43,373 bases of DNA from Methanobacteriota archaeon (GCA_034660415.1 JAYEJE010000084.1:1-43373), one strand, 5' to 3'; shown: positions 8,746 through 25,954, counted from the stretch's first letter. Numbers and translations are program-made. Notes: generated from the letters alone by a model not told the origin.

Positions 8746-9555
8746 TCACCTGTTCCTTCTATGCGCCATATAGGCAACTGCTAAAATGCCTGCAATTGTG
8801 AATACCACCTCAAATCCCGGCTCTTTCGGTGCTGGTGCTGACGCTGACGCTGGTTTTTTAACACCTACAAAAAGTTCCTGGTCAGGTTGCAGTAAAAACT
8901 TATCCCTCGTATCTGCCCATTTCGACTTGAATGTCTTCTTTTCCGCTGCCGTTGCTTCTGCGGGTACACTGAACTTCACCTTTTTCCGTAGTTCGAAGTA
9001 GCCTTCCGGGAACACTCCCTCTTTCACTGCGACCTCGTAACAGTCCCCAGTTGATTTTCGGCAGATGTCGAACCTGAAATTATCTCGAGTATTATCCTTT
9101 GCTATTTTCTTCAAGTTCGATTGGCTCAGGTCCATTACTTCAGTCCCGTCAGGCAGAATTATCTTATACTCGCCTTCCGTTTTCGTTTCTATCCCCGCCC
9201 CTGTCCCCGTAATGTATCGAAAACAATCCTTGGAACCAAGAGTAGCAAGCCTGCTGATTATCTGGATGTCATCTCTTGCGGGTATCTCCTCGCCCCATAT
9301 TTCCGATATTCCTAACTGAGATGCCCTGAATGCACAAGCTCCACATCCACAAATAGCTCCGTGATATTTCCCTACGTCTTCTATTGATATTTCAAGCAGC
9401 GTATCACCATCATAAATTGAAATGGGCGCTAGCTCGTATTCCGGTAGCGGTTTGGCACCTGGCATGTGTGCATCAACGGAAATAATCGCTGTAGATACTG
9501 CAAGCAAAACCAACGACATAACCACAACTGTTTTTATTTTATCTATTCTTTTCAT
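8746..9555 (-). CDS. Surface-anchored protein: signal peptide, recurrent Cys-containing domain X, PGF-CTERM anchor
   Basis: Signal peptide ends VDA-HMPG. Domain X motifs are KYHGAICGCGACAFRAS, IPARDDIQIIS and VFPEGYFELRKK. The C-terminus PGFEVVFTIAGILAVAYMAHRRNR is a canonical PGF-CTERM. Confidence 0.7.
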   Translation of the reverse strand: MKRIDKIKTVVVMSLVLLAVSTAIISVDAHMPGAKPLPEYELAPISIYDGDTLLEISIEDVGKYHGAICGCGACAFRASQLGISEIWGEEIPARDDIQIISRLATLGSKDCFRYITGTGAGIETKTEGEYKIILPDGTEVMDLSQSNLKKIAKDNTRDNFRFDICRKSTGDCYEVAVKEGVFPEGYFELRKKVKFSVPAEATAAEKKTFKSKWADTRDKFLLQPDQELFVGVKKPASASAPAPKEPGFEVVFTIAGILAVAYMAHRRNR

Positions 9556-9565
9556 TTTTTTTTCT

Positions 9566-10780
9566 TTATCTCCTCCTGTATCTCACTATCACAACTGCTA
9601 TAAGCCCTACAATAATTATCACGAATGATACTGCACCGCCAATAGGAGCCACATCCGTTCCTTTACTTTTCACGTTAGAAAGATAGGTCGTCAGGTCGCT
9701 ATGCTTGATTTCTACTGTCTCTCTACCGTCTTTCAGTTTTAACGGCTTCTGCTCTGTAATCACCGTTGCCAGGTCGGTAGAATGGATGTGAACATCACTT
9801 GAAAATCCTTTGAGCTTTTTCATCTCCTCCAGCATCTCACTCCCTTTTTCCTTTACCTCTTCTCTATCATCGGTCTTTTCTATCTCGTCCAGATACCCCC
9901 CGGTCCTGTATATAGAACCCATGAGCTTATGCGACAGGTCATGCAGCATCGCTGCCTCCACTTCGCCCTTACCCATCTCCTCTGCTACTGGCACCATCGC
10001 GCCGTGTATCAACTCATGCATTTCGCCTATGCACACTGATGCCTCCTCCGATTTCTCACGGAGTGCTTCTAATTTCCCTTTATCTCCACTTTCAGTAAGT
10101 TCGGCAGCGAGACAAAGCATAGTGCCTTCATCCCCCACTTTGCCTACGATGAGCGCATCAAGATGGTGGGCATAATTGTCGTGAAGTTCATTCGATAGCC
10201 TCTTTCCTATTGACTCTGTGAGTTTAGGTAAAATCTTGCTTTCCATATCACCAAGCCGGCTTTCTTCATACCACTTCAATGTCTCCCCTCTTGCCTTTTT
10301 GTTCCTTAGCTCAAAGTAGCCTGCCGGGAATATACCCGGGATTTCTTCCTCTGCTTTCCATACGTATTCCTCACCACTCCTCATATTGACAAACGTAAAT
10401 TCAAAGTTCTCTGCTCTCAGGTTCTTCTCACTTGTCCCTGCTGGTGTTTTTATCTCGTATTCACCCGGCTTCGTGCTTATCCATTCCGGTGGTGCATCTC
10501 CCTCCGGCTGACCTATGATAACTTGAATGACCTGCTCAGCAGCCGGAGTTGGCAGTTTACTGATTATGTTTATGTCACTTCGCCGTGGTGCTTCACCTTC
10601 CCACAGGTTATCTATGGCATCACCCGTTGCCCTGTACACAAAATCCGCGGAAAAATCCGTCACCGCCTCTGCTTCTTCTGCTGCTGCTATTTGAACGGGG
10701 AACGCATTTACTAATATCGCCGCTAATAATATTACTACTGCGGTGGCTCTAATTTTTCTCCATTCCTTTTCTTTTTTCAT
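9566..10780 (-). CDS. Surface-anchored protein: Cys-less domain X, His-rich helical region, C-terminal TM anchor (tandem paralog 1)
   Basis: Signal peptide present. LWEGEAPRRSDINIISKL and IFPAGYFELRNKK are domain X motifs. HDNYAHH, MHELIHGAM and HDLSH helices follow. The C-terminal TM segment ends RYRRR. Confidence 0.7.
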   Translation of the reverse strand: MKKEKEWRKIRATAVVILLAAILVNAFPVQIAAAEEAEAVTDFSADFVYRATGDAIDNLWEGEAPRRSDINIISKLPTPAAEQVIQVIIGQPEGDAPPEWISTKPGEYEIKTPAGTSEKNLRAENFEFTFVNMRSGEEYVWKAEEEIPGIFPAGYFELRNKKARGETLKWYEESRLGDMESKILPKLTESIGKRLSNELHDNYAHHLDALIVGKVGDEGTMLCLAAELTESGDKGKLEALREKSEEASVCIGEMHELIHGAMVPVAEEMGKGEVEAAMLHDLSHKLMGSIYRTGGYLDEIEKTDDREEVKEKGSEMLEEMKKLKGFSSDVHIHSTDLATVITEQKPLKLKDGRETVEIKHSDLTTYLSNVKSKGTDVAPIGGAVSFVIIIVGLIAVVIVRYRRR

Positions 10781-10784
10781 ATCT

Positions 10785-12071
10785 TCACTTGCTCCTTTTA
10801 ACTACTATCCCCAGTGCTGCGAGCCCGGCAACGATTATTCCGAAGGCTATGGCACCACCGGTGGGAAATGGCTCTTTTTCTTCCTCTTCCGCCTCACTTA
10901 TCTTCGATAGGTATGTTGTTAGGTCGCTATGTGCGATATTGACTGCTTCAGTACCGTCTTTCAGCTTTAACGGCTTCTGCTCTGTGAGCACCGTTGCTAA
11001 GTCGGTAGAATGGATGTGAACCTCACTTGAAAATTCTTTGAGCTTCTTCATCTCCTCCAGCATCTCACTCCCTTTTTCTTTTACCTCTTCTATATCATCG
11101 GTCTTTTCTATCTCGTCCAGATACCCCCCGGTCCTGTATATAGAACCCATGAGCTTATGCGACAGGTCATGCAGCATCGCTGCCTCCACTTCGCCCTTAC
11201 CCATCTCCTCTGCTACTGGCACCATCGCGCCGTGTATCAACTCATGCATTTCGCCTATGCACACTGATGCCTCCTCCGATTTCTCACGGAGTGCTTCTAA
11301 TTTCCCTTTATCTCCACTTTCAGTAAGTTCGGCAGCGAGACAAAGCATAGTACCTTCATCCCCCACTTTGCCTACGATGAGCGCATCAAGATGGTGGGCA
11401 TAATTGTCGTGAAGTTCATTTGATAACCTCTTCCCTATGGATTCTGTAAGTGCTGACGACACTTTTTCTTCCATTTTCCCAAGCTGACTTTCTTCATACC
11501 ACTTCAGTGTCTCTCCTCTTGCCTTTTTGTTCCTCAGCTCGAAGTAGCCTGCCGGGAATATACCCGAGATTTCTTCCTCGGCTTTCCATACGTATTCCTC
11601 GCCGCTCCTCACGGCAACAAAAGTAAATTCAAAGTTCTCTGCCTTCTGGTTTTCCTCGCTCGTTCCTCCAGGTGCTTTAAGCTCGTATTTGCCCGGCTTA
11701 TCACTTGTCCATTCCGGTGGTGCTTCTCCCTCCGGCTGACCTATGATAACCTGAATGACCCGCTCAGCAGCCGGAGTTGGCAGTTTACTGATTATCTTTA
11801 TGTCACTTCGCCGCGGTGCTTCTCCTTCCCACAGGACATCTATAGCATCGCTTATCGCTCTGTATGCGAAATCCGCAGAAACGTCTATCTCTGCTGCTCC
11901 CCCTCCTGCTCCTGCTGCTCCTTCCACGTATTTCGGGCATTCTTCTATCGGCACCCAGCCTTCTGGTATATGCGCCTGCCCCGGAAACGCGAATGCACTG
12001 AGCAATACCGTTGCCAGTACTATTCCTATTACAGCAGTTTTGAGTTTTCTCCTGCTCTTTTCTCTTTCCAT
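10785..12071 (-). CDS. Surface-anchored protein, tandem paralog 2 of 9566-10780
   Basis: Same architecture as its neighbour. The signal peptide ends GQA-HIPEG. The central and C-terminal region is almost nucleotide-identical to the neighbour. Confidence 0.7.
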   Translation of the reverse strand: MEREKSRRKLKTAVIGIVLATVLLSAFAFPGQAHIPEGWVPIEECPKYVEGAAGAGGGAAEIDVSADFAYRAISDAIDVLWEGEAPRRSDIKIISKLPTPAAERVIQVIIGQPEGEAPPEWTSDKPGKYELKAPGGTSEENQKAENFEFTFVAVRSGEEYVWKAEEEISGIFPAGYFELRNKKARGETLKWYEESQLGKMEEKVSSALTESIGKRLSNELHDNYAHHLDALIVGKVGDEGTMLCLAAELTESGDKGKLEALREKSEEASVCIGEMHELIHGAMVPVAEEMGKGEVEAAMLHDLSHKLMGSIYRTGGYLDEIEKTDDIEEVKEKGSEMLEEMKKLKEFSSEVHIHSTDLATVLTEQKPLKLKDGTEAVNIAHSDLTTYLSKISEAEEEEKEPFPTGGAIAFGIIVAGLAALGIVVKRSK

Positions 12072-13482: not shown

Positions 13483-13562
13483 CTTTTTTTTCACCTCCTA
13501 ATAATTTTGTTTTATTTACCTCTTTTTTAGTTGAGGATATTCATTCTGTATCTCTTTCTTAT

Positions 13563-14091: not shown

Positions 14092-15321
14092 CTACACCCC
14101 CATAACAGAAACTATTCCTTGCATCAGCCCACCGAAAATGAAGAAAGAAACTAGCAGGACGCCGAGGCATTTCAAAAGATCTACCACTCCTGCTTCCTTC
14201 AAGATCATTATAAAAGTAGCTAAGCACGGGAAATATATGGTCACAAGAGTTACTGCGATAATCGTCTGCGCCACCGTCATTTTTATCGCACTAATCTGAG
14301 CCACTGCAACATCCTTCCTCAGGAAAGCCATTACCAGAGGTCCTGCGGTCTCTTCCGGCACCCCAAACCAATAGACAAACATCGGCGAGAGCACTGAACC
14401 AATCCAACCTATCACTCCTATCCAGTACAGTATGTTTACAATTAAGACACCAGCAAGCACCATCGGAATCGCCACCGCGATGAAACCTTCAACACGATGC
14501 CACACCTTACGAGCTATGTTTCTCCATGTCGGCGCCCGATAAGGTGGTACATCAATAAGCATCTCAGGACTCCTGCCCGGTGTAATTGCATCAAGGACAA
14601 ACCCAGCAATGAAAAAAGAGATAATACAATAAAGCAGAATCAGCCCAACATACTCGGGCACTACTGCAAGCATTACGCCAAGCTGTGCTCCACAAGGGAT
14701 AAATACGCCCAAAAGAGCCATCATCATAAACCTCTGCTTCTTGGTCTCTAAAGCTCGTGTCGCTTCTACGCCGGGGATATTGCATCCAAGCGAAAGAAGC
14801 ATAGGGACAGCAGCAAATCCGTGCAGTCCGATTTTATGGAATACCGTGTCTATTAAAGTAACCAATCTCGGCATATACCCCGTATCCTCAAGTATCGTTA
14901 GGATTATATAAAAAGCAAATACAGCAGGGAGAACGACCCCAATTGCAACGTAAAGACCGCTGGTTAGCACACCAAAATATTCGAATGCATGAAGTGCCGT
15001 GGGATCGCCCACAAGAATTCCATAGAGCAGGCTGCTTTCTTTTAACGTCGCTCCACCTCCCGGAACGGTCACCTTCAGCCAAGGTATAAGATACTTACTA
15101 AACACGGGGTCTAATAGCATCATGAGGAAACTCAAGCCAAAAGTAAAAAAGAAAGAGAAGAACCCAAACAGAACTGCTATCGCTAGAGGTATTCCGGTTG
15201 AAGGTCTGACAGTCAGCTCTCCTACTACATCTTTCAAGCTTCGCTCGTATTTCCCAAACCTAACCGTTTCTTTAGTTATCTTATCAATCAAGTCCCACCG
15301 TTCATCGCTTGTCAATGTCAT
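14092..15321 (-). CDS. feoB: FeoB membrane (permease) part, split from its G domain
   Basis: 409-aa polytopic protein with the nucleoside-recognition/gate regions typical of the FeoB C-terminal half, such as GLHGFAAVPMLLSLGCNIPG. Confidence 0.8.
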   Translation of the reverse strand: MTLTSDERWDLIDKITKETVRFGKYERSLKDVVGELTVRPSTGIPLAIAVLFGFFSFFFTFGLSFLMMLLDPVFSKYLIPWLKVTVPGGGATLKESSLLYGILVGDPTALHAFEYFGVLTSGLYVAIGVVLPAVFAFYIILTILEDTGYMPRLVTLIDTVFHKIGLHGFAAVPMLLSLGCNIPGVEATRALETKKQRFMMMALLGVFIPCGAQLGVMLAVVPEYVGLILLYCIISFFIAGFVLDAITPGRSPEMLIDVPPYRAPTWRNIARKVWHRVEGFIAVAIPMVLAGVLIVNILYWIGVIGWIGSVLSPMFVYWFGVPEETAGPLVMAFLRKDVAVAQISAIKMTVAQTIIAVTLVTIYFPCLATFIMILKEAGVVDLLKCLGVLLVSFFIFGGLMQGIVSVMGV

Positions 15322-15420
15322 TACTTAACTCAGCTCACCCGCCATAATTGCTTATTCAATAGACTTATAAATCCTAAATTCAAAATCCGAAATCCTAAAC
15401 AAAACCAAATTTTCCACTCT

Positions 15421-15951
15421 TTATTGAGCATATTCCACCCTCCCCATAATGTCCTCAATCTTAGCTGACGATGCATCTTCTATCCTCGAAACGAGTTCCT
15501 TTAGACCTTCGCCTGCTATCGCTACCGTAGGCACAATCGGGATTCCGAGAATGGCTTTTAATTTTTCCACATCCACTTCTATATTTTTGACCATCGTATC
15601 ATCCCACATGTTCAATGCAATTGCCACAGGATAACCGCGTTCAATAATTTCCAAAACCATGTAAAGACCACGCTCTAATTTTGAAGCATCGAGCACGCAT
15701 ACAACCACGGAATCGGGATTCTCCGCAAGCATTTTTACCGCCACTTCTTCTGCTTTGTCCTTCGGTTCCAGAGAAAATGCTCCTGGGATGTCTATGAGTT
15801 CTACATCTTCGTCTTCTAATCTCATATATCCCCGTGTATAATCAACAGTCGTGCCGGGATAATTCGACTCGATGACATTTGCCCCAGTGAGGCGATTAAA
15901 AAATACACTTTTCCCTACATTCGGATTCCCCATCAATAAAATTCTTTTCAT
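15421..15951 (-). CDS. feoB: FeoB N-terminal GTPase domain as a stand-alone protein
   Basis: GNPNVGKS (G1), DIPG (G3) and NMWD (G4). 176 aa. A 99-bp gap separates it from the permease gene. Confidence 0.8.
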   Translation of the reverse strand: MKRILLMGNPNVGKSVFFNRLTGANVIESNYPGTTVDYTRGYMRLEDEDVELIDIPGAFSLEPKDKAEEVAVKMLAENPDSVVVCVLDASKLERGLYMVLEIIERGYPVAIALNMWDDTMVKNIEVDVEKLKAILGIPIVPTVAIAGEGLKELVSRIEDASSAKIEDIMGRVEYAQ

Positions 15952-15954
15952 TAA

Positions 15955-16191
15955 TTAATCTCCAACATCCACGATGACTTTATCAGCCAGACCAAGACCC
16001 ACAGAAGTATTAGCTCTGCCCATTTCTATCACTACGGGTCCCTTTATAGGTTGCCGAGTCGTCATTCTCACCTTTTTACCTTCCCTGATGCCCATGCCCG
16101 CTATTTGTACCCTAAAATCCTCCGCTATCTCTTTTACCGTTCCCTCTTCATCAAAATCCATTTCGCTCAACTTCTTCTCCATTGCTCTCAT
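15955..16191 (-). CDS. feoA: FeoA (single SH3-like domain)
   Basis: 78 aa with the FeoA pattern GMGIREGKKVRM ... VGLGLADKVIV. Confidence 0.7.
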   Translation of the reverse strand: MRAMEKKLSEMDFDEEGTVKEIAEDFRVQIAGMGIREGKKVRMTTRQPIKGPVVIEMGRANTSVGLGLADKVIVDVGD

Positions 16192-16478
16192 ACCCTCCTG
16201 ACGATAACTTTTTGCGCCATTCCACGACCTATGGAAACCGTGTTTCTATCTACCTCTATTGTGACAGGCCCGTAACAGGAAATCATACGAACAATGCTGC
16301 CCTCAAATAGACCACGAAGGAGCAACTTCTGGCGAATGCCATGACCGCCTTCAATTGTCATTACTCTCCCCTGTTCTCCGGGACTCAATTGGCTTAAGGG
16401 CATCGAGTCACTGTAATTCTCAGTTACAAAAGACCTTTTCTCCTCCACCATATCGTTGCTCACGCACTCACCGCTCAT
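16188..16478 (-). CDS. feoA: FeoA (single domain)
   Basis: LSQLSPGEQGRVMTIEGG ... LRGLFEGSIVRM ... SIGRGMAQKVIV. Confidence 0.7.
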   Translation of the reverse strand: MSGECVSNDMVEEKRSFVTENYSDSMPLSQLSPGEQGRVMTIEGGHGIRQKLLLRGLFEGSIVRMISCYGPVTIEVDRNTVSIGRGMAQKVIVRRV

Positions 16479-16496
16479 TTCCTTTTCCTTTTTTTT

Positions 16497-17207
16497 CTAT
16501 TCCACTTGAACTTTCTCTGCGAGTCCTCGTCCGATGGTTACAAGTTGTACCCCTATTTTCGCAAGCACGTAAGTCCCTCTTTTTGGACTTGGAGGTGACG
16601 GCTCCTTCCGGACCAATGTTATCTCTTTATCTTCCACCATTCCGAGCAGTTCAAATTTCTCCTTAAGCGAGTCGCCACCGATTATCTTACTTATCTTCGC
16701 TTTATCGCCTTCTCCGAGATAATTAATCTGTATGAATTCTCCGTCACGTTCTATCAGCACCTTTGATGCCTGTCCTTCGCCCATGTTTATCTCCTTGTCG
16801 TCTATTTTAAACACAAGGGTATCATCTGCGAGATGACGAACGAACTCAACTTCGCCCCCTTTCTCTATGCCGAGTACAGAGAAGTTATCTTCGAACGTCT
16901 TCCCACCTTCTAACGTCTTTATCGTCCCCTTATCGCCATTCTCCAGTCGTAAAAGCGGAAGTGTTTCTCCGCCTTTCTCCACATACACCTTATCTGCCCA
17001 ACCGCGCGCTATGACTGCTTCTCTTCCTGCTGACACATTTAGCGCAATGGGCCCAGCATGAACATGCACAGGCTCAGTAGCAACTACGGTAAGTTCTGTT
17101 CCTTCGGAAATGCCCAAATCCGCCAGGTTACCTTTTACTTCTGAACCGCCGCCTATCTCTTTCACCGTTACTTTTACTTCCGGTTCGACTTCAGCTAATA
17201 TTTTCAT
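16497..17207 (-). CDS. Triple-FeoA-domain protein
   Basis: Three consecutive ~75-aa FeoA-like units, each ending in a xxGxGxAxKVxVE-type strand: ARGWADKVYVE, MGEGQASKVLIE and IGRGLAEKVQVE. Confidence 0.7.
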   Translation of the reverse strand: MKILAEVEPEVKVTVKEIGGGSEVKGNLADLGISEGTELTVVATEPVHVHAGPIALNVSAGREAVIARGWADKVYVEKGGETLPLLRLENGDKGTIKTLEGGKTFEDNFSVLGIEKGGEVEFVRHLADDTLVFKIDDKEINMGEGQASKVLIERDGEFIQINYLGEGDKAKISKIIGGDSLKEKFELLGMVEDKEITLVRKEPSPPSPKRGTYVLAKIGVQLVTIGRGLAEKVQVE

Positions 17208-17394: not shown

Positions 17395-18012
17395 CTAAGC
17401 ATGTGTTATCAGCGGAAGCGCAACCAAAGTTCCGATGAAAATCTCGTCTTCAGGCAAGCTCAGTAATTTTTCCCTGACTTCCAGTTCCCATCCCTCATAT
17501 CTTTCTCGCTCTTCCTCTGTCGGTTTCCTTGGAATTTCATGCTCTACTATGCTCCCCAGCTCAAAATACCCGTCTGGAAACAGCTCTGGTATTACCTGTA
17601 CCCTATACGAAGTATTCGTGGATTTCCGAATAAAGGTAAACACATAATTCCCTGTCGTCAGATGTTTCGCATCTGTCCCCTCCGGCGGCTCAAGCACATA
17701 ATCTCCTATTGTTCCTTCTTGCCATGGTTCCAATTCTATCCCCAGCATATACTTGAAAGTTAGCTGCGAACCCTTGGTAGGGAGCGTGCTGATTATCTTA
17801 ATATCCTCTCTCGCTGGTATTTCTTTATCTTCATGCCACAGCTTTGAAAGAGCAAATTGTGTTGCCCTGAAACCACTCGCCACGCATACGCACGGTTTTC
17901 CATCCATCGGTTCATCGCCATGCATTTCTGCATGCAATTTCGCTATTACTTCTATTCTTATTTTTACCTGTGTTCCTCTTCCATCCATTATTATAGGTTT
18001 TAACCTCTTCAT
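17395..18012 (-). CDS. Cytoplasmic (no signal peptide) domain X protein
   Basis: GKPCVCVASGFRATQ, IPAREDIKIIS, YVFTFIRKSTN and LFPDGYFEL align with the domain in 8746-9555 and with the C-terminus of 23906-25954. Confidence 0.65.
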   Translation of the reverse strand: MKRLKPIIMDGRGTQVKIRIEVIAKLHAEMHGDEPMDGKPCVCVASGFRATQFALSKLWHEDKEIPAREDIKIISTLPTKGSQLTFKYMLGIELEPWQEGTIGDYVLEPPEGTDAKHLTTGNYVFTFIRKSTNTSYRVQVIPELFPDGYFELGSIVEHEIPRKPTEEERERYEGWELEVREKLLSLPEDEIFIGTLVALPLITHA

Positions 18013-18485: not shown

Positions 18486-18504
18486 CTTTTTTTTACCTCC
18501 TATT

Positions 18505-19854
18505 TCATACATGTATTGGCATTCCAAGCAAGAAGTGCCCTATTCCAATAATTATTAATGAAATGAGTCCTGCCAGTATCATCAGATACGCTATTGCAAA
18601 GAACATCCACTTCAATGACATCTCTCGCCATATCGTCGCCATACATGCCACGCAAGGAACGTATATCAAACTGAATGCCAGTAATGCGTATGCCGAAAGA
18701 GGCGTGAGTACAGTAGGTAAGACATCTGCCGTTTGCCCTAACGTCTCCATTGTTGCTACCACTGTCTCCTTCGCCATGAATCCGAAAAATAGTGCCACTG
18801 CAGTCTTCCAGTCCCAGCCGAAAATCTCGACTGACGGCTGGAGAAAGTGACCGATCATTGCAATATACGAGTTCTCTATCACAGTACCACCCTGTGTTGG
18901 ACCCCATGGTAACACCTGGAGGAACCAAACAATTACGACTATACCGAATATGATTGTCCCTGCTTTATATATGAACCATTTCCCGCGCTCCCACATGTGT
19001 AGAATTGAAGCTTTTGCTGTTGGTATTGCGTAGCGAGGCAGTTCCATCATGAAAGCCGAGGGTGACCCTTTGAACAATGTGTGTCGGAAAAGTACTGCCA
19101 TTGCTATCGCTAAAGCGACACCAAGGAAAACTATTGAAAATATCACCGTCCCTACCATTTCTGCGGGGAACATAGCACCTGCTATGAACGTGTATATTAC
19201 CATCCTCGCTCCACAACTTATTAAGGGGTTCACCAGTATCGTAAGTTTTCTGTCCTTTTCACTCCCTATGGTACGACATGCCATTACCCCCGGAATATTG
19301 CATCCAAACCCACTTATCAGGGGTATAAAAGACTTACCATGCAGCCCCAATTTATACATTGCTTTGTCCATCACGAACGCTGCTCTTGACATGTAACCAC
19401 AGTCCTCTAATATAGCGAGAACAAGGAACAACAGAAATATAATTGGTATGAATGACAAAACAGTACCCACTCCATTGAATACCGCATTGTTTAGGAAGGA
19501 TAGGACAATCTTATTTGGTATCACCGCATTTGTAAGGTCTGGAAGCCATGCACCAAAGATTTTATCGGATATTAGACTCTGGAACGGAGCCCCAAAAGTA
19601 AATACTAATTGGAATACAGCCCACATCAAAGCTATAAAAACGGGTATTCCAAGTCTCTTATTCAAAAATACGACGTCGAGCATGTCGTTAATACTCCATT
19701 CCCGCTTTTTATCTACCTTCATTGTTTTGCTCAGTATTTCGTCTATCTCATCGTATCTCTTCTCTGCGAGAAGTACTTCCGGCTCTTCTTGTTCTTCTTC
19801 TTCTTCTTCTTCTTCTTCTTCCAAAACTTCTTCTTCACTCGGTTCTTCACTCAT
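18505..19854 (-). CDS. feoB: FeoB membrane part 2 with an acidic poly-Glu N-terminus
   Basis: 449 aa with GLHGKSFIPLISGFGCNIPG and other FeoB gate motifs. The N-terminus is EEEEEEEEEEQEE. Confidence 0.8.
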   Translation of the reverse strand: MSEEPSEEEVLEEEEEEEEEEQEEPEVLLAEKRYDEIDEILSKTMKVDKKREWSINDMLDVVFLNKRLGIPVFIALMWAVFQLVFTFGAPFQSLISDKIFGAWLPDLTNAVIPNKIVLSFLNNAVFNGVGTVLSFIPIIFLLFLVLAILEDCGYMSRAAFVMDKAMYKLGLHGKSFIPLISGFGCNIPGVMACRTIGSEKDRKLTILVNPLISCGARMVIYTFIAGAMFPAEMVGTVIFSIVFLGVALAIAMAVLFRHTLFKGSPSAFMMELPRYAIPTAKASILHMWERGKWFIYKAGTIIFGIVVIVWFLQVLPWGPTQGGTVIENSYIAMIGHFLQPSVEIFGWDWKTAVALFFGFMAKETVVATMETLGQTADVLPTVLTPLSAYALLAFSLIYVPCVACMATIWREMSLKWMFFAIAYLMILAGLISLIIIGIGHFLLGMPIHV

Positions 19855-19871
19855 TTTTAGTTACTTGCACC

Positions 19872-20564
19872 TCACCCTGCTGCATCTATTATCTCCCCCT
19901 TATGTGGGCTCTCGTCTATCTCCTTCAATACTTCTTCGTCCTTCTCCAGCACTTTTATCGCAAGCCATCTCGTTGGATACTTGCTTGACAGACGCGTATC
20001 CTTTTTAATCCCCGCTTCTACCTTTTTTATCAGCGCATTTATGTCTTCACCATAGTCAATCGGGTTCGCTCTTTTCCCTTTCTCCTTCGCTACCTCCACG
20101 GCAACCTTTTTCAATTCTTCCATTCCCTCTCCCGTAGTAGCAACTATTGGCACTACAGGCATACCAAGTATTCCAGACAGTTTCTGCTCATCTATCTCTA
20201 TTCCTCCCACTCCTGTCCACTGATTGATAGTCAGCACTATTTTCGCCTCCAACTCAATCAAAAGGAATGTAAGGTACAGATTCCTCTCCATGTTCGTGTT
20301 ATTCACAATATCAATTACAGCATCCGGCTTCTCCTCCACGATGAAATTCCTCGCTACCAATTCATCCATTGAACGTGCAGTAAGGCTGTAAGTGCCAGGT
20401 AAATCAACAAGTTCTATCTCCTCTCCGTCATACTTGCATTTACCCGTCTTTTTCTCCACCGTCACACCAGGCCAGTTACCAACGTGCTCTTTCATTCCGG
20501 TAAGTTGGTTGAAGGCCGCCGTCTTACCTACGTTGGGGTTTCCTATCAAGGCTACCGTTATCAT
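19872..20564 (-). CDS. feoB: FeoB G domain plus helical domain as a stand-alone protein
   Basis: GNPNVGKT (G1) and DLPG (G3). 230 aa. Located directly upstream of the permease gene. Confidence 0.8.
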   Translation of the reverse strand: MITVALIGNPNVGKTAAFNQLTGMKEHVGNWPGVTVEKKTGKCKYDGEEIELVDLPGTYSLTARSMDELVARNFIVEEKPDAVIDIVNNTNMERNLYLTFLLIELEAKIVLTINQWTGVGGIEIDEQKLSGILGMPVVPIVATTGEGMEELKKVAVEVAKEKGKRANPIDYGEDINALIKKVEAGIKKDTRLSSKYPTRWLAIKVLEKDEEVLKEIDESPHKGEIIDAAG

Positions 20565-20570
20565 TTCTTT

Positions 20571-20822
20571 CTATCCTACTATTTTTACCATTATCTTCAT
20601 CGCTATTCCTCTACCAAGCGCAATTTTTGTATCGCGCACACCAATAAGTATCGTGCCTCCGGGATTTGATACCACAACCTTTACCTTTGTCGAAGGTGTA
20701 AAGCCCATTTCAGTAAGGCGCTGTGTCATTCCTCTACCTCCCCTCAACTCTACTATCTCTCCTTCTTCACCTTCAGCAAGGAATGTTAAAGGCACTGCTT
20801 GCACTGCTTTCGTTTCACTCAT
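20571..20822 (-). CDS. feoA: FeoA (single domain)
   Basis: 83 aa with LTEMGFTPSTKVKV ... ALGRGIAMKIMV. Confidence 0.7.
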   Translation of the reverse strand: MSETKAVQAVPLTFLAEGEEGEIVELRGGRGMTQRLTEMGFTPSTKVKVVVSNPGGTILIGVRDTKIALGRGIAMKIMVKIVG

Positions 20823-21064
20823 CCGCCCTCTTCTTTCACCTCCACCCTTATAACCTCTGCTTCCTCTTTCCTTAGCGTTAGGTTGTATCCTCTCAAAAGA
20901 AATTCCACCGGATCACCCATTGGCGCTTTTCTTACTACTTCTATCCTTGAACCCCTCACGATGCCCATGTCCATCATCCTTCTTCGCTCGCCACCACTTC
21001 CTCCAACATGAGTGACTTTGCATGTATCGCCCGGTTCCAGGTCACTCAAATTTCGCTCTACCAT
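20819..21064 (-). CDS. feoA: FeoA (single domain)
   Basis: 81 aa with LSDLEPGDTCKVTHV ... MMDMGIVRGSRIEV. Confidence 0.7.
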   Translation of the reverse strand: MVERNLSDLEPGDTCKVTHVGGSGGERRRMMDMGIVRGSRIEVVRKAPMGDPVEFLLRGYNLTLRKEEAEVIRVEVKEEGG

Positions 21065-21067
21065 TTT

Positions 21068-21775
21068 TCATTCCACCCAAACCTTTTCTGCAAGTCCTCT
21101 TCCAATGGTTGCAAACTGTTCCCCGATTTTCGCAAGCACGTATTTCCCCTGTTTTGGACTTGGTACGACTATCTCCTTCCTGACCAGAGTTATCTCCTTC
21201 CCTTCTGCCATTCCAAGCTGTTCAAATTTCTCCTTAAGCGAGCGTCCACCAATTATCTCGCTTATTTTTACCTTCTCACCTTCTTTTAGATAATTTAGCT
21301 GAACGGATTTCCCTGCTTTTTCTGCCACCACCTTCGATGCCTGACCTTCGCCCATACTTATCTCCGCGCCATCAACTTCAAACACTAGAATGACGTCAGG
21401 GAGATGGCCGATAAACTCAACTTCTGTTCCTATTTTAACTCCCAGCTCGCTGATCCAATCCTCAAAAGTCTCTCCTCCTTCGATAGATTTTATCAGTGCC
21501 TTCTCTCCTTCTTCCAGTGTTAAAAGAGGAAGCATTTCGCCTTCTTTCGCCACATACACCTTATCCGCCCATCCACGAGCTAAGACTGCTTCTTTTCCTC
21601 CTGTTTTCACTGAAATAGGTCCTGCATGTACGTGCACTGGTTCAAGGGCGATTACCCTAAGTTTAGTCCCTTCTTCAATGCCCAACTCCCTGAGATATCC
21701 TGTTACCTCTGAACCACCATCTATTCTCTTTACTTCTACCGCTATTTCAGGCTCAACTTCGCTTAATTGTTCCAT
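21068..21775 (-). CDS. Triple-FeoA-domain protein (paralog)
   Basis: Collinear with 16497-17207 and 21870-22577. The ATG at 21775 (MEQLSEVEPE) follows GGAGTGGGAG and gives 235 aa, matching the paralogs. Confidence 0.7.
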   Translation of the reverse strand: MEQLSEVEPEIAVEVKRIDGGSEVTGYLRELGIEEGTKLRVIALEPVHVHAGPISVKTGGKEAVLARGWADKVYVAKEGEMLPLLTLEEGEKALIKSIEGGETFEDWISELGVKIGTEVEFIGHLPDVILVFEVDGAEISMGEGQASKVVAEKAGKSVQLNYLKEGEKVKISEIIGGRSLKEKFEQLGMAEGKEITLVRKEIVVPSPKQGKYVLAKIGEQFATIGRGLAEKVWVE

Positions 21776-21799
21776 TTTTTCTCCCACTCCAAAACAAAA

Positions 21800-21835
21800 A
21801 TAAGAAAAAGGTCAGAAAAAAACAATCCTGACCAA
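21800..21835 (-). terminator. Hairpin plus T5, a possible attenuator between the two triple-FeoA genes
   Basis: GGTCAG (21810-21815) pairs with CTGACC (21828-21833), and a T5 run follows on the minus strand. Confidence 0.3.
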
Positions 21836-21869
21836 AACATTCGCACTCTTCTTTCCTTTTGATTCTATC

Positions 21870-22577
21870 CTACGCTACCGAGACCTTTTCTGCAAGACCT
21901 TTCCCGATGGTTACAAAGTGTTCACCTATTTTCGCAAGCACGTAAGTTCCCACCTTTGGACTTGGCACAGGCGCCTCCGTCCTGACCAACGTTATCTCTT
22001 TTCCTTCCGCTACACCAATCTGTTCAAATTTCTCCGTAAGCGAGGTTCCACCAATTACCTTGCTTGCTTTTCCCTTCTCGCCTTCTTTTAGATTGTTTAG
22101 TTGAACAGATTGCCCGTCCTTTTCTACTACCACCTTCGATGCCTGACCTGGACCCATACTCATCTCTGCGCCGTCAACTTTAAACACCAGAGTGACGTCA
22201 GCAAGATGGCGGGAGAACTCAACTTCGCTTCCTATTTTAACTCCCAGCTCTTCGATCCAAGTCTCAAAAGTCTTTCCACCTTCAATTGTTTTTACCGTTC
22301 CTTTATCTCCTGCTTCGAGTCTTAAAAGCGGAAGCGTTTCCCCGCCTTTCTCCACATACACCTTATCCGCCCATCCACGAGCTATGGTAAGTTCTCCTTC
22401 TCCGCTTTTCACTGAAATAGGTCCTGCGTGCACATGCACTGGCTCAGTAGCTACCACTGTAAGCTCGGTTCCTTCTGCAATGCCCAACTCCTCCAGGTGG
22501 CTGTTGACTTCCGCGCCACCGTCTATTTTTTCTACCCGTACTTTTACCTCGGGCTCAACTTCGCTTAATAGTTTCAT
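21870..22577 (-). CDS. Triple-FeoA-domain protein (paralog)
   Basis: 235 aa with the same three-unit layout. First gene after cassette copy B. Confidence 0.7.
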   Translation of the reverse strand: MKLLSEVEPEVKVRVEKIDGGAEVNSHLEELGIAEGTELTVVATEPVHVHAGPISVKSGEGELTIARGWADKVYVEKGGETLPLLRLEAGDKGTVKTIEGGKTFETWIEELGVKIGSEVEFSRHLADVTLVFKVDGAEMSMGPGQASKVVVEKDGQSVQLNNLKEGEKGKASKVIGGTSLTEKFEQIGVAEGKEITLVRTEAPVPSPKVGTYVLAKIGEHFVTIGKGLAEKVSVA

Positions 22578-23817: not shown

Positions 23818-23905
23818 TAAAAAAGAAAAGACAAAGAACAGACGCCCATATTAGGCTTCTGCCCCTCCTAAATTTTATCTGTTTCGTTTCTAAAAACAAC
23901 TGGTG

Positions 23906-25954
23906 TCAATTACTTTCCTCGAAAATACTGTCCACTGGCAGATACATCAACTTCTCCTTTAGCTCTCTCCAGAGCAACTTAAACGCTTTCTTCTCCTCTT
24001 TCGTTACATCGCCTTTTCCCATTTTCGCCAATTTGCACTTCGTCCTCAGTTCAAAGAATCGTTCCGGGAATATCTCCTCCTCCACCCGGAGCGTGATTGA
24101 ATCATTGGTGGACTTCCGAGTGAATGTGTAGCCGTAGTTATCTGCCGTAATATTTACTATGTCTGCTCCTTCGTCAATTGTGAGGTCTTCTGTTGAACCC
24201 AATATGTATTCAAAGGTCATCATGTGTCCGTCGGATGGATGTCCGGAGTTAATTTTCACGTCACCTCGATGTGGTGTTCCGTTCCACAATTCTTCTTCTG
24301 AAAATGCTCGCAAGGTTGACTTGAATGCAGATGCCACACAGGGGCATATCTCTACCACACCCTCACCGTGATATTTTCCGGCGTCCTCTATTGTTATCGT
24401 TAGCAGTTCTTCTCCGTCGTATATCTGTACTGATGGGTAACTGAGCTCCTTAGCCACCATGAGTTCGATCCATTCTGCCACATTCGAATGCGGCGTCAGC
24501 GCTCTCTCCCCTTTTTCCGGATATGCGTAACTAATGTTCTTCAGCAGCTTTGGTATTTTTCTACCCGTGAAGTACCCTTCACTGACCATTAGCGGAACCA
24601 CAATAGAGTGAGATGTCGCGGAAACATTCTCCACCACCGCTCTTACTAAGAGGTCTGAATGTAGCGTCTCATTTGGAAATACAAATGAGTAGCGTACATC
24701 ATTTATATTGAGTCCCATTCCGTACCTCAATTTCAGTTTCATCTGCTCTGCCAGCGACTTGGAACTGCTCACCCAACCTGCAAAATTGGATTCATTACCT
24801 GTTCCGTGTGCAACAAGTACGATGGTTTCATTGGCTGGATCTTCGCTTAACGCAGCCGCACGATCCACCAGAATATCCGCAATCGCCCAGTGGTCATCAA
24901 TAGCATTCGTAAGTACAATCTCCGTTTCTGTATCAACGGGAACGAGTTCTTCTTCCTCCGCTTCTCCTCCGCCGTGGTGCTGCTTTGCTGTTACTCCCAT
25001 TGCGCTTACGGTCTCGACTATCGGCATGTAGGAAACGCGGTATCGCCCTTCAAGAGATACGATAGAACGTTCTAGCTCTTTCCCTTCGACAAATACCTGC
25101 ATGCTCATCGTCGTCAGTTCCTCGCGCAGCCCAAGCACATACTCGATCTCGCCAATGTGCCCGCTGTGTGATGATATGAACAGCGGTACTGCGATTATCT
25201 TTGTAACGCCCGCTTCATCGAGCTTGCCCACTGCAATGTTTATCGTCTCGTTCGGCACAAACTCCAAGAAGCCGAGTTCTATTGGGTACGGCGAACTTAC
25301 ATTCGCCACTACTGATCGAAGAGGAGCACACCATGAATCGCTCGGACTGCCATGTCCTACCACCAGAATGCCTATTTGTTCGTACTCCTCAACAGGTGCC
25401 TCTTTGATCCGAGTGAACGTACCTTCCCATTCTGCAACCACAATACCGGTTGTATTTTTCGCTGTCCAGGTCTTTACCGTGGTATTATCATCAACAAAAG
25501 TCTCACTCTCCTCACAGGTAACATTCTCCAGGATACCTAACTCGGGAAGACCGTCCATATCATAAGAGCTACCATAGCCATTTGGCAGTAAATCATAATA
25601 CAAGGGTTCCTCGTCTCCCTCCTTAATCGCAAACTTCTCTTTGTCCGCGTCCCACCAAGCTTCCCCGGTCTCTGCTCCCTCTTCTCCGTCCATTACCACA
25701 ACAAAATCGGCAGTGGTCGGTCCGGTCAGGCTAACAGTTCTCGTACCGATAGTGGGCATGGCCTGTTCACCTATCGTCATTGTGCCATTGAAGCTCCAGT
25801 TGCCGGAAAGCCGCTCGAAGAGTTCCTCAGCCGTTATCTGCTCTGATAGGTTGCTATCTTCGGCATTTGCAACTCCCGTAGATAACGTAAGAACACCCAA
25901 TAATAAGATGCATGTTAGCACTACAACAGCGTTTTTTCTTTTCGTTTCATTCAT
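23906..25954 (-). CDS. Secreted multidomain protein: signal peptide, beta-rich N-domain, two CbiX-type class II chelatase domains, C-terminal domain X
   Basis: Signal peptide ends GVANA-ED. The CbiX motifs are ILVVGHGSPSDSW ... AVPLFISSHSGH and IVLVAHGTGNES ... VVPLMVSEGYF. The C-terminus carries KYHGEGVVEICPCVASAFKS, YTFTRKSTN and IFPERFFELR. Confidence 0.7.
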   Translation of the reverse strand: MNETKRKNAVVVLTCILLLGVLTLSTGVANAEDSNLSEQITAEELFERLSGNWSFNGTMTIGEQAMPTIGTRTVSLTGPTTADFVVVMDGEEGAETGEAWWDADKEKFAIKEGDEEPLYYDLLPNGYGSSYDMDGLPELGILENVTCEESETFVDDNTTVKTWTAKNTTGIVVAEWEGTFTRIKEAPVEEYEQIGILVVGHGSPSDSWCAPLRSVVANVSSPYPIELGFLEFVPNETINIAVGKLDEAGVTKIIAVPLFISSHSGHIGEIEYVLGLREELTTMSMQVFVEGKELERSIVSLEGRYRVSYMPIVETVSAMGVTAKQHHGGGEAEEEELVPVDTETEIVLTNAIDDHWAIADILVDRAAALSEDPANETIVLVAHGTGNESNFAGWVSSSKSLAEQMKLKLRYGMGLNINDVRYSFVFPNETLHSDLLVRAVVENVSATSHSIVVPLMVSEGYFTGRKIPKLLKNISYAYPEKGERALTPHSNVAEWIELMVAKELSYPSVQIYDGEELLTITIEDAGKYHGEGVVEICPCVASAFKSTLRAFSEEELWNGTPHRGDVKINSGHPSDGHMMTFEYILGSTEDLTIDEGADIVNITADNYGYTFTRKSTNDSITLRVEEEIFPERFFELRTKCKLAKMGKGDVTKEEKKAFKLLWRELKEKLMYLPVDSIFEESN

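What the first reader, a model, noticed from the sequence alone, without database searches (positions are those of the whole stretch)
8746..25954. Recurrent ~140-aa domain X in five proteins (four with signal peptides, one without)
Five proteins share collinear blocks: 8746-9555, 9566-10780, 10785-12071, 17395-18012 and the C-terminus of 23906-25954. The blocks are:
- IED.GKYHG;
- CxC.A..F(R/K) (missing in the two tandem paralogs);
- LW....P.R.DI.IIS;
- Y.FTF.RKST;
- (I/V)FP.G(Y/F)FEL(R);
- a terminal (E/S)(L/I)F.

The H-G...C.C...F-R start is loosely reminiscent of the FmdE family (HGHxCPG...G.R), but I cannot establish homology by eye. The context is always metal-related: after Feo loci, or fused to CbiX domains.

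Two members appear to have a mature N-terminal His after the predicted signal cleavage site (VDA-HMPG and GQA-HIPEG). That residue could contribute to a metal site.
Basis: partly seen in the sequence, partly recalled or inferred. Interest (0 to 1): 0.7.

Follow-up and report, generated by a model that had tools for sequence, protein, structure and literature searches.

The report
Secreted FmdE-like domains in iron-uptake loci
The repeated ~180-residue domain is real: it is a divergent, mostly secreted branch of the poorly understood FmdE protein family, found next to ferrous-iron (Feo) uptake genes or fused to secreted CbiX metal chelatases in many anaerobes, so it probably handles metal outside the cell, although no member has been tested.

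Summary
Exactly five proteins in the window share one collinear domain of about 150-190 aa. Pairwise BLASTP E-values run from 1e-30 to 1e-3, and none of the five matched any of 1000 shuffled sequences.

- Profile-profile comparison with 98 canonical FmdE proteins gives 97.6-99.0% probability (best E 2e-18).
- An AlphaFold model of the cytoplasmic copy finds only the three solved FmdE structures.
- Pfam PF02663 passes its threshold for one copy.

The metal site is remodelled. FHGHxC...Cys55 becomes YHG[D/H]xCxC, and Cys55 becomes Gly.

The window comes from an ANME-1 (Methanophagales) archaeon. All five genes lie in one co-directional cluster with a DtxR repressor and two split Feo systems, and that gene order recurs in other ANME-1 genomes.

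The subfamily is small: 215 clusters among 1.84 billion representative proteins. It is mostly signal-peptide-bearing and spans more than ten anaerobic phyla. In 39 genome loci, FeoB lies within 10 kb in 18 and a TonB-dependent receptor in 19, against 2 and 4 of 120 canonical FmdE loci. Half of the long members are fused to CbiX chelatases.

Best explanation (inferred): an extracytoplasmic metal relay that feeds Feo and sometimes works with a secreted chelatase. It is a new variant of a known family, of moderate interest.

The parts
8746..9555 (-). X1 (269 aa). Signal peptide aa 1-29 (9469-9555). Mature FmdE-like domain starting at His30 (8848-9468), with site GKYHGAICGCGACAF at 9328-9372. PGF-CTERM surface anchor at 8749-8820.
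   Evidence: ORF. PGF-CTERM Pfam 29 bits and TIGR04126. FmdE Pfam 15.3 bits, below the cutoff. hhalign of its homolog alignment against canonical FmdE, prob 99.0. AF2 pLDDT 95.8.
9566..10780 (-). X2 (404 aa). Signal-peptide-like N-terminus. Truncated FmdE-like domain (10199-10675) that lacks the beta-hairpin and His/CxC. About 180-aa helical His-containing extension (9656-10198). C-terminal hydrophobic anchor (9569-9655).
   Evidence: No Pfam FmdE hit.
10785..12071 (-). X3 (428 aa), tandem paralog of X2 (74.5% identity). Predicted mature N-terminus His34 (HIPEGW...). Domain at 11427-11972 without CxC. Helical extension. C-terminal anchor at 10788-10880.
17395..18012 (-). X4 (205 aa). The only copy without a signal peptide. 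Complete FmdE-like domain, with a 10-residue insertion between His and CxC (LHAEMHGDEPMDGKPCVC, within 17857-17943). Lies between the two Feo loci.
   Evidence: Pfam FmdE 27.3 bits against GA 22.9. AF2 pLDDT 87.4. Foldseek top hits 2GLZ, 2GVI, 3D00. Only 7 homolog clusters.
23906..25954 (-). X5 (682 aa). Signal peptide (25862-25954). Unassigned N-domain (25385-25861). Two CbiX modules (24845-25384 and 24455-24844). C-terminal FmdE-like domain with KYHGEGVVEICPC (23909-24454).
   Evidence: CbiX Pfam 6e-13 and NCBIfam CfbA. Alignment to CfbA 6M25 keeps His/Glu/His in module 1. Domain.
14092..17207 (-). Feo locus a: triple-FeoA protein (16497-17207), FeoA (16188-16478), FeoB GTPase domain (15421-15951) and FeoB membrane domain (14092-15321). 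Followed by a small membrane protein (13563-14081).
   Evidence: Pfam.
18505..22577 (-). Feo locus b: two triple-FeoA proteins, two single FeoA proteins, FeoB GTPase domain (19872-20564) and FeoB membrane domain (18505-19854). Followed by a small membrane protein (18051-18527).
   Evidence: Pfam.
26444..26908 (-). DtxR-family metal-dependent repressor, directly upstream of X5.
   Evidence: Pfam Fe_dep_repress and Fe_dep_repr_C. Conserved position in ANME-1 loci L002 and L009.
26158..26204 (-). Paired promoter-region element (AAGCCTAACCTTTTTCGG, then AAACCGAACATTTTTAGG 29 bp further on) upstream of X5. The same pair lies at 23423-23469, 22623-22669 and 17258-17304, upstream of the histidine-kinase, Feo-b and Feo-a operons.
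   Evidence: 19 matches in the window against 0.28 expected, all on the minus strand. Alignment. Conserved at the same positions in other ANME-1 MAGs, with 3 hits in 954 kb of unrelated loci.

Best explanation
Domain X is a divergent, mostly extracytoplasmic branch of the FmdE (PF02663) superfamily.

Shown:
- It has the FmdE alpha+beta core.
- A remodelled copy of the FmdE N-domain metal site sits at the same place. His15 is kept. His17 becomes Asp/His, or Gly/Ala in the X1 clade. Cys19 is kept. The fourth ligand, Cys55, is lost (Gly), and a new Cys appears two residues after Cys19, giving YHG[D/H]xCxC.
- The subfamily is encoded next to Fur/DtxR-FeoA-FeoB operons and TonB-dependent receptors in many anaerobic phyla. 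It is often fused to secreted CbiX-type class II chelatases.

Inferred:
- The domain binds a divalent metal, most likely Fe(II), outside the cytoplasmic membrane. It then acts as a relay or chaperone that passes the metal to the Feo permease.
- In the CbiX fusions such as X5, the chelatase module would take the metal out of, or exchange it with, an environmental metallo-tetrapyrrole. The FmdE-like domain would accept that metal.

In this ANME-1 archaeon:
- Three copies (X1-X3) are anchored on the cell surface.
- One (X5) is secreted with its chelatase.
- One (X4) is cytoplasmic and could receive the metal on the inside.
For: Homology:
- hhalign of the family against 98 canonical FmdE proteins gives prob 99.0 / E 2.3e-18, 98.9 / 2.4e-17 and 97.6 / 3.4e-12 for three independent family alignments. 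All three give the same residue register.
- For the X4 model, the four best Foldseek hits are the three FmdE structures, with E 2e-5 to 1e-2; the next hit has E of about 1.
- Pfam FmdE is above its threshold for X4 and hits 24 of 50 long family members, best 7e-27.

Metal site:
- The canonical ligands are His15, His17, Cys19 and Cys55, which bind Zn/Ni in crystals (PMC2954224).
- YHG[D/E/H]xCxC occurs in 17 of 17 representatives with the tight motif.
- His and both Cys are at least 90% conserved in the X1-like alignment and in the bacterial alignment.

Location:
- 107 of 145 representatives have a signal-peptide-like N-terminus.
- Partner domains are extracellular: SLH, dockerin, NosD, Cu_amine_oxidN1, PGF-CTERM, Synerg-CTERM.

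Iron link:
- In the window, DtxR, two Feo loci and all five copies are co-directional.
- The synteny is kept in ANME-1 MAGs.
- Among 39 loci from more than 10 phyla: FeoB in 18, TonB receptor in 19, Fur/DtxR in 19, flavodoxin in 10, any of these in 33. Among 120 canonical-FmdE loci the counts are 2, 4, 2, 1 and 11.
- HmuY sits next to some members.

Chelatase link:
- CbiX occurs in 25 of 50 long members.
- CxC is kept in 31 of 34 CbiX-fused copies against 35 of 80 stand-alone copies.
- X5 chelatase module 1 keeps the catalytic His/Glu/His of CfbA.

Against: - No member has been studied experimentally, and no paper on it was found.
- The metal identity is not shown. Canonical FmdE crystals held Zn/Ni. 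The window also encodes a ZinT-like protein, and the closest solved relative of the CbiX module is the nickel chelatase CfbA.
- About a third of domain copies, including X2 and X3, lack His/CxC, so metal binding at this site cannot be the universal function.
- The high-confidence X1 model (pLDDT 95.8) did not retrieve the FmdE structures with Foldseek. Its best hit had E 0.39, to thioredoxin-like domains.
- One CbiX-X fusion in a cultured Desulfoscipio stands alone, without iron genes nearby.
- The context loci are longer (up to 20 kb) than the control loci (8 kb), although most Feo hits lie within 2-4 kb.
- Signal peptides were judged only by a heuristic.
Confidence: 0.5

Rival explanations
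1. Thiol-disulfide redox protein. The FmdE core is a circularly permuted thioredoxin-like fold. The exposed CxC pair (CGC in X1, CPC in X5) would cycle between dithiol and disulfide. It might reduce Fe(III) or a disulfide, or keep the FeoB periplasmic cysteines reduced, rather than hold a metal.
For: - The best Foldseek hits of the X1 model are thioredoxin-like domains: ERp27 b domain, DsbA2, calsequestrin.
- The FmdE paper classes the N-domain as a permuted thioredoxin-like fold.
- From my own knowledge, CGC and CPC motifs are redox-active in other proteins.
Against: - Those Foldseek hits are not significant (E 0.4-1, prob at most 0.2).
- The motif aligns exactly with the crystallographically defined metal site of FmdE.
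- The invariant His, and the Asp/His two residues after it, are unexplained by a purely redox role.
- The middle residue of CxC is not conserved.
Confidence: 0.12
2. Tetrapyrrole-binding (hemophore-like) domain. It would bind heme or another metallo-tetrapyrrole through His/Cys axial ligation and present it to the CbiX module or to an uptake system, rather than bind a free metal ion.
For: - Recurrent fusion to CbiX.
- Neighbours include HmuY and TonB-dependent receptors.
- One family member carries a Shr-like heme-binding domain.
- A nearly invariant Arg (92%) could bind a propionate; this last point is inference.
Against: - The Arg is also conserved in canonical cytoplasmic FmdE (GyRaA), so it is ancestral.
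- The site geometry is inherited from a tetrahedral Zn/Ni site.
- Many members sit directly after FeoB with no tetrapyrrole-related gene nearby.
Confidence: 0.13
3. Handling of nickel, cobalt or zinc rather than iron. In ANME-1, which needs much Ni for cofactor F430, the secreted CfbA-like chelatase plus the FmdE-like domain would scavenge Ni, Co or Zn. The Feo-like permeases would then carry a metal other than iron.
For: - The closest solved relative of X5's chelatase module is the Ni chelatase CfbA.
- Canonical FmdE crystals contain Zn and Ni.
- A ZinT-like gene with a similar 5' leader sits next to the cluster.
- DUF4198 neighbours occur in some bacteria.
Against: - Fur, flavodoxin, HmuY and TonB receptor neighbours across phyla point to iron.
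- The CfbA match is weak (E 3e-4, below the NCBIfam cutoffs) and shows only the chelatase class, not the metal.
Confidence: 0.15
4. The similarity among the five proteins is compositional or due to chance, and no real domain exists.
For: None found.
Against: - Pairwise E-values down to 4e-30, and no hits to shuffles.
- 215 homologous clusters in an exhaustive search.
- Confident AF2 folds.
Confidence: 0.01

Closest known systems
FmdE / FwdE family (Pfam PF02663; structures 2GLZ, 2GVI, 3D00)
   Same: - Same alpha+beta core, by profile-profile comparison and Foldseek.
- The metal-site motif is in the same loop, with His15 and Cys19 retained and the following G-x-R helix conserved.
- The C-terminal helical hairpin ending in ...ELF is conserved.
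- The 2010 structure paper already noted that most family genes sit beside metal-ion transporters.
- The function of the family is unknown.
   Different: - Canonical members are cytoplasmic and often carry a C-terminal treble-clef zinc finger. They bind metal through FHGHxC plus Cys55.
- This branch is mostly secreted or surface-anchored and has no zinc finger.
- It has YHG[D/H]xCxC with Cys55 replaced by Gly, and an extra N-terminal beta-hairpin.
- It is specifically linked to Feo, TonB receptors and Fur/DtxR: FeoB in 46% of loci against 1.7% of canonical FmdE loci.
- The sequences are too diverged for HMMER profiles to reach the PDB entries.
Extracytoplasmic class II chelatases (periplasmic CbiK(P) of Desulfovibrio vulgaris; outer-membrane CbiK-like IhtB of Porphyromonas gingivalis)
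   Same: A CbiX/CbiK-type chelatase carrying a signal peptide and placed outside the cytoplasm. It has been proposed to bind heme or to remove iron from it. IhtB is as cited in PMC6460266; CbiK(P) is from my own knowledge.
   Different: Those proteins are stand-alone chelatases. Here the chelatase is fused to one or two FmdE-like domains, and often to cell-wall anchoring domains. The example in the window is archaeal.
Periplasmic heme dechelation coupled to FeoAB in Bacteroides fragilis (BtuS1/BtuS2, CobN-like)
   Same: A working model in which iron is released from a tetrapyrrole outside the cytoplasm, under iron limitation, and then imported by Feo. The dechelatase itself is unidentified (PMC6460266).
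   Different: The protein families differ (CobN-like against CbiX plus FmdE-like). There is no experimental evidence for the system in the window.
N-terminal histidine (histidine-brace-type) metal sites of secreted proteins such as CopC/PcoC and LPMOs
   Same: The predicted mature N-terminus is a His directly after the signal-peptidase site. It is conserved as A|H-x-P-G in a clade of the family.
   Different: This is a resemblance from memory only. No second brace ligand is defined, and the fold and metal are different. Proximity of His1 to the His/CxC site could not be checked.

Membership tests
FmdE (Pfam PF02663) | Score above the Pfam gathering threshold (22.9 bits) | tested here: inconclusive
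   X4 scores 27.3 bits, matching only the C-terminal half of the profile. X1 scores 15.3 and X5 12.2 bits, both below the threshold. X2 and X3 have no hit. Across the family, 24 of 50 long members hit at E<=1e-3, and about half of the X1 homologs carry a precomputed PF02663 assignment.
FmdE (Pfam PF02663) | Profile-profile homology to canonical FmdE proteins over the whole N-terminal core domain | tested here: met
   hhalign against 98 canonical sequences taken from genome loci: prob 99.0 / E 2.3e-18 over 162 columns, and 98.9 and 97.6 for two other family alignments.
FmdE (Pfam PF02663) | Alpha+beta core fold of 2GLZ, 2GVI and 3D00 | tested here: inconclusive
   X4 model: the top four Foldseek hits are exactly these structures (E 2e-5 to 1e-2, TM 0.46-0.62). 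X1 model (pLDDT 95.8): no FmdE hit at E<=10. The secondary-structure order is the same in both models.
FmdE (Pfam PF02663) | N-domain metal site FHGHxC plus Cys55 (His15, His17, Cys19, Cys55) | tested here: not met
   His15 and Cys19 are retained. His17 is replaced by Asp/His (Gly/Ala in the X1 clade). Cys55 aligns to a conserved Gly. A new Cys lies at Cys19+2. The site is absent in X2 and X3. Note that 3D00, an accepted family member, also lacks two of the ligands.
FmdE (Pfam PF02663) | Second motif Asp58 / Gln61 / Thr67 at the dimer interface | tested here: inconclusive
   The Asp58 position is Asp in the bacterial clade (invariant D107 in A5) but only 45 of 132 across the whole family. Gln61 aligns to Glu. 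Thr67 is not conserved.
FmdE (Pfam PF02663) | C-terminal treble-clef zinc finger (present in about two thirds of canonical members; optional) | tested here: not met
   No Cys-rich C-terminal extension in any of the five copies.
CbiX / class II chelatase (for X5) | CbiX domain with the catalytic His-Glu-His triad | tested here: met
   Pfam CbiX 49 bits, two stretches. The alignment to CfbA 6M25 places VGHGS, LEF and SHSGH on the CfbA His9, Glu42 and His75 region (the residue numbers are from memory). The second module keeps only the first His (sequence).
PGF-CTERM archaeosortase substrates (for X1) | C-terminal PGF motif, hydrophobic helix and basic tail | tested here: met
   PF18204 29 bits against 18.8, and TIGR04126 28.7 against 24.5. 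X2 and X3 have an anchor-like C-terminus that no model detects.
Histidine-brace type N-terminal His site | His as residue 1 of the mature protein, with the amino terminus and the imidazole chelating the metal | not testable with these tools
   The cleavage site was inferred from sequence only. A|H-x-P-G is conserved in 69 of 212 proteins. The first 10 residues of the X1 model have mean pLDDT 89, but no coordinates were available.

The most novel reading that the evidence does not exclude
A self-contained extracellular metal-extraction module. A secreted, ATP-independent CbiX chelatase runs in reverse on environmental metallo-tetrapyrroles such as heme. It hands the released Fe(II) to a fused or neighbouring FmdE-like His/Cys domain, which delivers it to FeoB. 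This would supply both the missing anaerobic periplasmic dechelatase and the first dedicated extracytoplasmic partner of the Feo transporter. It would also give the FmdE family its first defined biochemical role, as a metal donor or acceptor.
Probability: 0.18. Interest if true: 0.8.

Novelty: new variant of a known kind. Interest (0 to 1): 0.55.

Why it matters
- FmdE has been a widespread family without a known function since the 1990s. Feo, the main ferrous-iron importer of anaerobes, has no known extracytoplasmic partner.
- How strict anaerobes take iron out of heme without oxygen is unresolved.
- This is a small, clearly delimited subfamily with three properties together: it is secreted, it keeps a Cys/His site inherited from the FmdE metal site, and it is tied to Fur/DtxR-Feo-TonB loci and to secreted chelatases in more than ten phyla. 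That makes it a concrete, testable candidate for all three questions.
- For ANME-1, five copies and two Feo systems in one apparent regulon point to a heavy investment in metal capture in sulfidic sediment. This is relevant to the iron and nickel economy of anaerobic methane oxidation.

Tried and rejected
- **Sequence searches of the PDB:** searches with X4 alone, with a 12-sequence profile and with a 102-sequence profile found nothing relevant. Homology had to be shown by hhalign against canonical FmdE sequences that I fetched with a back-translated FHGHxCPG pattern.
- **Foldseek with the better X1 model:** it did not recover FmdE. I treat this as a limit of the search, not as evidence against homology, because hhalign on the same alignment gives 99%.
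- **Does the N-terminal His compensate for loss of the His17-position ligand?** Counts over all retrieved homologs suggested so. The signal came from closely related ANME-1 sequences. Among 50%-identity representatives only two N-terminal-His proteins carry the tight motif at all, both with a ligand-capable residue (E, H) at that position, so the comparison cannot be made. I dropped the claim.
- **X2/X3 helical extension against the neighbouring 420-aa helical His-rich PGF-CTERM protein:** no similarity.
- **The two small membrane proteins after each FeoB:** no detectable similarity to each other.
- **Pfam at E<=10:** nothing for the X5 N-domain, the X2 extension or the small membrane proteins.
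- **Rfam:** only a tRNA in the window, so no riboswitch in the long X5 and ZinT leaders.
- **The search for related loci with the broad alignment A4:** failed for lack of a conserved stretch. The bacterial-clade alignment A5 worked.
- **Desulfoscipio CbiX-X fusion:** its genomic context showed no iron genes.

Full report
**Observation**

- X1: 8746-9555
- X2: 9566-10780
- X3: 10785-12071
- X4: 17395-18012
- X5: 23906-25954

They share one collinear domain.
- Pairwise BLASTP E-values, computed for a nominal database of 1e8 residues, run from 4e-30 (X1-X4) to 3e-4 (X3-X5). None of the five matched any of 1000 shuffled sequences.
- A family HMM over every six-frame ORF finds exactly these five copies. 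A canonical-FmdE HMM finds no ordinary FmdE gene in the window.
- X2 and X3 are tandem paralogs (74.5% identity). They lack the His/CxC block, and X2 also lacks the N-terminal beta-hairpin.
- X1 ends in a PGF-CTERM archaeosortase signal, and X2 and X3 have anchor-like C-termini.
- X5 carries two CbiX modules in front of the domain.
- X4 has no signal-peptide-like N-terminus.

**What the domain is**

- **Pfam.** Pfam gives FmdE (PF02663) hits: above threshold for X4 (27.3 against 22.9 bits), below it for X1 and X5, and none for X2 and X3.
- **PDB sequence searches.** HMMER searches of PDB sequences found nothing, even with a 102-sequence profile.
- **Profile-profile comparison.** I collected canonical FmdE genes from genomes with a back-translated FHGHxCPG pattern. 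I extracted 98 ORFs of 130-260 aa and ran profile-profile comparisons. Three different family alignments match canonical FmdE at 99.0%, 98.9% and 97.6% probability (E 2e-18, 2e-17, 3e-12), all in the same register.
- **X4 model.** An AlphaFold2 model of X4 (pLDDT 87.4) retrieves the three solved FmdE-family structures (2GLZ, 2GVI, 3D00) as its only significant PDB hits.
- **X1 model.** The model of mature X1 is even more confident (pLDDT 95.8). Foldseek did not recover FmdE from it. It gave only weak thioredoxin-like hits. That fits the published description of the FmdE core as a permuted thioredoxin-like fold, but it is a discrepancy I could not resolve.

**The site**

In the solved FmdE proteins a Zn/Ni ion is held by His15, His17, Cys19 (motif FHGHxC) and Cys55 (PMC2954224). 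In the alignments:
- the family's His aligns with His15;
- its first Cys aligns with Cys19;
- its second Cys falls on the Gly two residues later;
- the His17 position is Asp or His in most members;
- Cys55 aligns with a conserved Gly.

Among 50%-identity representatives with the uninterrupted motif, 17 of 17 read YHG[D/E/H]xCxC. X1 itself has Ala at the His17 position. X4 and a set of secreted members have a 10-35 residue insertion between the His and the CxC.

Over 132 domain copies the two Cys are 70% and 67% conserved. Structural residues (Arg49, Pro66, Trp59, Pro146, Phe192) reach 83-94%. About a third of copies therefore have lost the site.

**The subfamily**

- An exhaustive profile search of 1.84 billion representative proteins finds only 215 clusters at E<=1e-3, so this is a small offshoot of a much larger family.
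- 107 of 145 complete representatives have a signal-peptide-like N-terminus (heuristic).
- Of 50 members of 300 aa or more, 25 contain CbiX. Others contain SLH, Cu_amine_oxidN1, NosD, ZinT, dockerin, or a Shr-like heme-binding domain.
- Named examples include cell-surface proteins of Desulfoscipio sp. XC116, Moorellaceae, Dethiosulfovibrio (Synerg-CTERM), Alkanophaga and Methanophagales. They are annotated only by their other domains.
- Homologs of X1 come from ANME-1, Argoarchaeum, Methanomethylicota, Methanogenium, WOR-3 and Cloacimonadota. They are named 'hypothetical protein' or 'formylmethanofuran dehydrogenase subunit E'.
The first ten residues of the X1 model are confidently placed (mean pLDDT 89). 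I could not inspect coordinates, so whether this His reaches the site is open.

**Context in the window**

The window is from an ANME-1 / Methanophagales archaeon: X5 is 85-89% identical to proteins of several such MAGs. Read along the minus strand, from high to low coordinates, the order is:
1. DtxR-family repressor
2. X5
3. a histidine kinase
4. Feo locus b: two triple-FeoA proteins, two FeoA, split FeoB
5. a small membrane protein
6. X4
7. Feo locus a
8. a small membrane protein
9. a duplicated helical His-rich PGF-CTERM protein
10. X3, X2, X1

Beyond the repressor, at higher coordinates, lie a ZinT-like protein, a flavodoxin/DUF2023 pair, a FecCD-type ABC transporter, a TrmO_N protein and a GDT1 cation exchanger. 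The order DtxR - X5 - Feo - (helical protein) - X recurs in other ANME-1 MAGs.

A paired sequence element lies upstream of X5, the kinase, both Feo loci, the ZinT-like gene and most other metal-related operons. It consists of AAACCTAAC-TTTTT-TAGG and a second copy 29 bp on.
- It has 19 matches against 0.28 expected, all on the coding strand.
- It is absent upstream of the non-metal genes.
- It is conserved at the same places in the other ANME-1 loci, and nearly absent from 954 kb of unrelated loci.
- Its half-sites resemble those of DtxR/IdeR boxes (from memory).
- It may be the operator of a single metal regulon, but I cannot exclude a lineage-typical promoter.

**Context across phyla**

I retrieved 39 genome loci with the bacterial-clade alignment. 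They come from Cloacimonadota, WOR-3, Stahlbacteria, Ignavibacteria, Omnitrophota, Elusimicrobia, Caldiserica, Armatimonadota, Dehalococcoidia, Deltaproteobacteria, Argoarchaeum, Ethanoperedens and others.

| Neighbour within the locus | X-family loci (n=39) | Canonical FmdE loci (n=120) |
|---|---|---|
| FeoB | 18 | 2 |
| TonB-dependent receptor | 19 | 4 |
| Fur or DtxR | 19 | 2 |
| Flavodoxin | 10 | 1 |
| Any of the gene families searched for | 33 | 11 |

- The neighbours are almost always on the same strand. The typical orders are Fur/DtxR-FeoA-FeoB-X or receptor-X.
- The control loci are shorter (8 kb against up to 20 kb), but most Feo genes lie within 2-4 kb of X.
- Individual look-ups show the same picture, including HmuY next to one member and a flavodoxin fusion in another.

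**Mechanism**

*Shown:*
- Homology to FmdE.
- Inheritance and remodelling of its metal site.
- Predominantly extracytoplasmic architectures.
- A specific and phylogenetically broad link to iron-uptake and iron-regulator genes.
- Recurrent fusion to chelatases whose first module keeps the catalytic His/Glu/His.
- Stricter retention of CxC in chelatase-fused copies: 31 of 34 against 35 of 80.

*Inferred:*
- The domain binds Fe(II), or another divalent metal, outside the membrane and relays it to Feo.
- In the fusions it exchanges the metal with the chelatase, possibly during dechelation of environmental metallo-tetrapyrroles.

The only experimental precedent I found is the B. fragilis work. [quoted passage not shown]

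*Rivals* are a thiol-disulfide redox role, direct tetrapyrrole binding, and a Ni/Co/Zn rather than Fe specificity. None is excluded, and each would be settled by simple biochemistry.

**Comparison and novelty**

The family assignment is not new. Pfam already captures about half of these proteins, and the 2010 structure paper noted that FmdE genes tend to lie beside metal transporters.

I found four things described in no paper:
- the delimitation of a secreted, Feo/TonB/Fur-linked subfamily;
- its remodelled YHG[D/H]xCxC site;
- its fusion to secreted CbiX chelatases;
- the conserved mature N-terminal His.

I therefore class it as a new variant of a known kind, with moderate interest.

Noticed in passing
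window 17258-17304, 22623-22669, 23423-23469, 26158-26204, 28457-28474, 30594-30611, 31726-31772, 33187-33204, 35104-35150, 38193-38210, 38652-38669, 41316-41362 (all minus strand): A conserved ~90-bp promoter-region element with two copies, 29 bp apart, of AAACCTAAC-TTTTT-TAGG(TT). It lies upstream of almost every metal-related minus-strand operon: 19 matches against 0.28 expected. It is absent upstream of the non-metal genes and of X3. It is conserved at the same positions in other ANME-1 MAGs. Its half-sites resemble DtxR/IdeR boxes in swapped order, so it could be the operator of the DtxR-family repressor at 26444-26908, or a lineage-typical promoter.
   Followed up: partly
window 25955-26160 and 28229-28460: X5 and the ZinT-like gene (27119-28228) share similar ~200-nt regions between the promoter element and the start codon, both ending in the same TTTAGGAGGTGAAAAGAAA ribosome-binding stretch. 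Rfam finds no riboswitch there.
   Followed up: partly
window 12232-13494 (-): A 420-aa secreted PGF-CTERM protein made of two nearly identical ~175-aa helical repeats rich in His (HxxxH-like spacing). It has no Pfam family and sits between Feo locus a and X3. It is conserved at the same place in ANME-1 locus L009. It is not detectably related to the helical extension of X2 and X3.
   Followed up: partly
window 9656-10198 and 10881-11426 (-): The ~180-aa helical, His-containing C-terminal extensions of X2 and X3 are almost identical to each other: the overlapping plus-strand ORFs 9810-10175 and 11038-11403 translate almost identically (one residue differs). The N-terminal domains have diverged more. 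This suggests recent duplication or gene conversion.
   Followed up: no
window 14092-17207 and 18505-22577 (-): Both Feo systems are split into a separate GTPase-domain gene and a membrane-domain gene. Each is preceded by proteins with three tandem FeoA domains (236-239 aa) as well as single FeoA proteins. Each FeoB membrane gene is followed by a small multi-pass membrane protein (13563-14081 and 18051-18527) with no family assignment and no mutual similarity.
   Followed up: partly
window 36240-40114 (-): A FecCD-type ABC permease and ATPase are followed by a TrmO_N (PF01980/UPF0066) protein and a SAM methyltransferase. PF01980 is a documented fusion partner of canonical FmdE (PMC2954224; PMC11237513), so a second FmdE-associated theme appears in the same island without an FmdE domain.
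   Followed up: no
window 35297-36187 (+); also L017 8894-9664: A flavodoxin plus DUF2023 gene pair lies in the island. The same pair lies next to a family member that is itself fused to flavodoxin in an unrelated metagenomic contig. Flavodoxin genes are near the family in 10 of 39 genome loci.
   Followed up: partly
window 6753-8429 (-): A secreted M14 zinc carboxypeptidase with a C-terminal cohesin domain lies directly downstream of X1. It keeps this position in ANME-1 loci L002 and L004.
   Followed up: no
window 69-887 (+), 3717-3791 (+), 5441-6734 (+): An IS66-family transposase fragment, a tRNA gene and an AbiEi/AbiEii toxin-antitoxin pair flank the low-coordinate side of the island.
   Followed up: no
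window 25385-25861 (-): The ~160-aa N-terminal domain of X5 (EELFERLSGNWSFNG...) has no Pfam match even at E<=10. It recurs at the N-terminus of a 1589-aa family member (P0008) that also carries NosD, CbiX and two X domains.
   Followed up: partly
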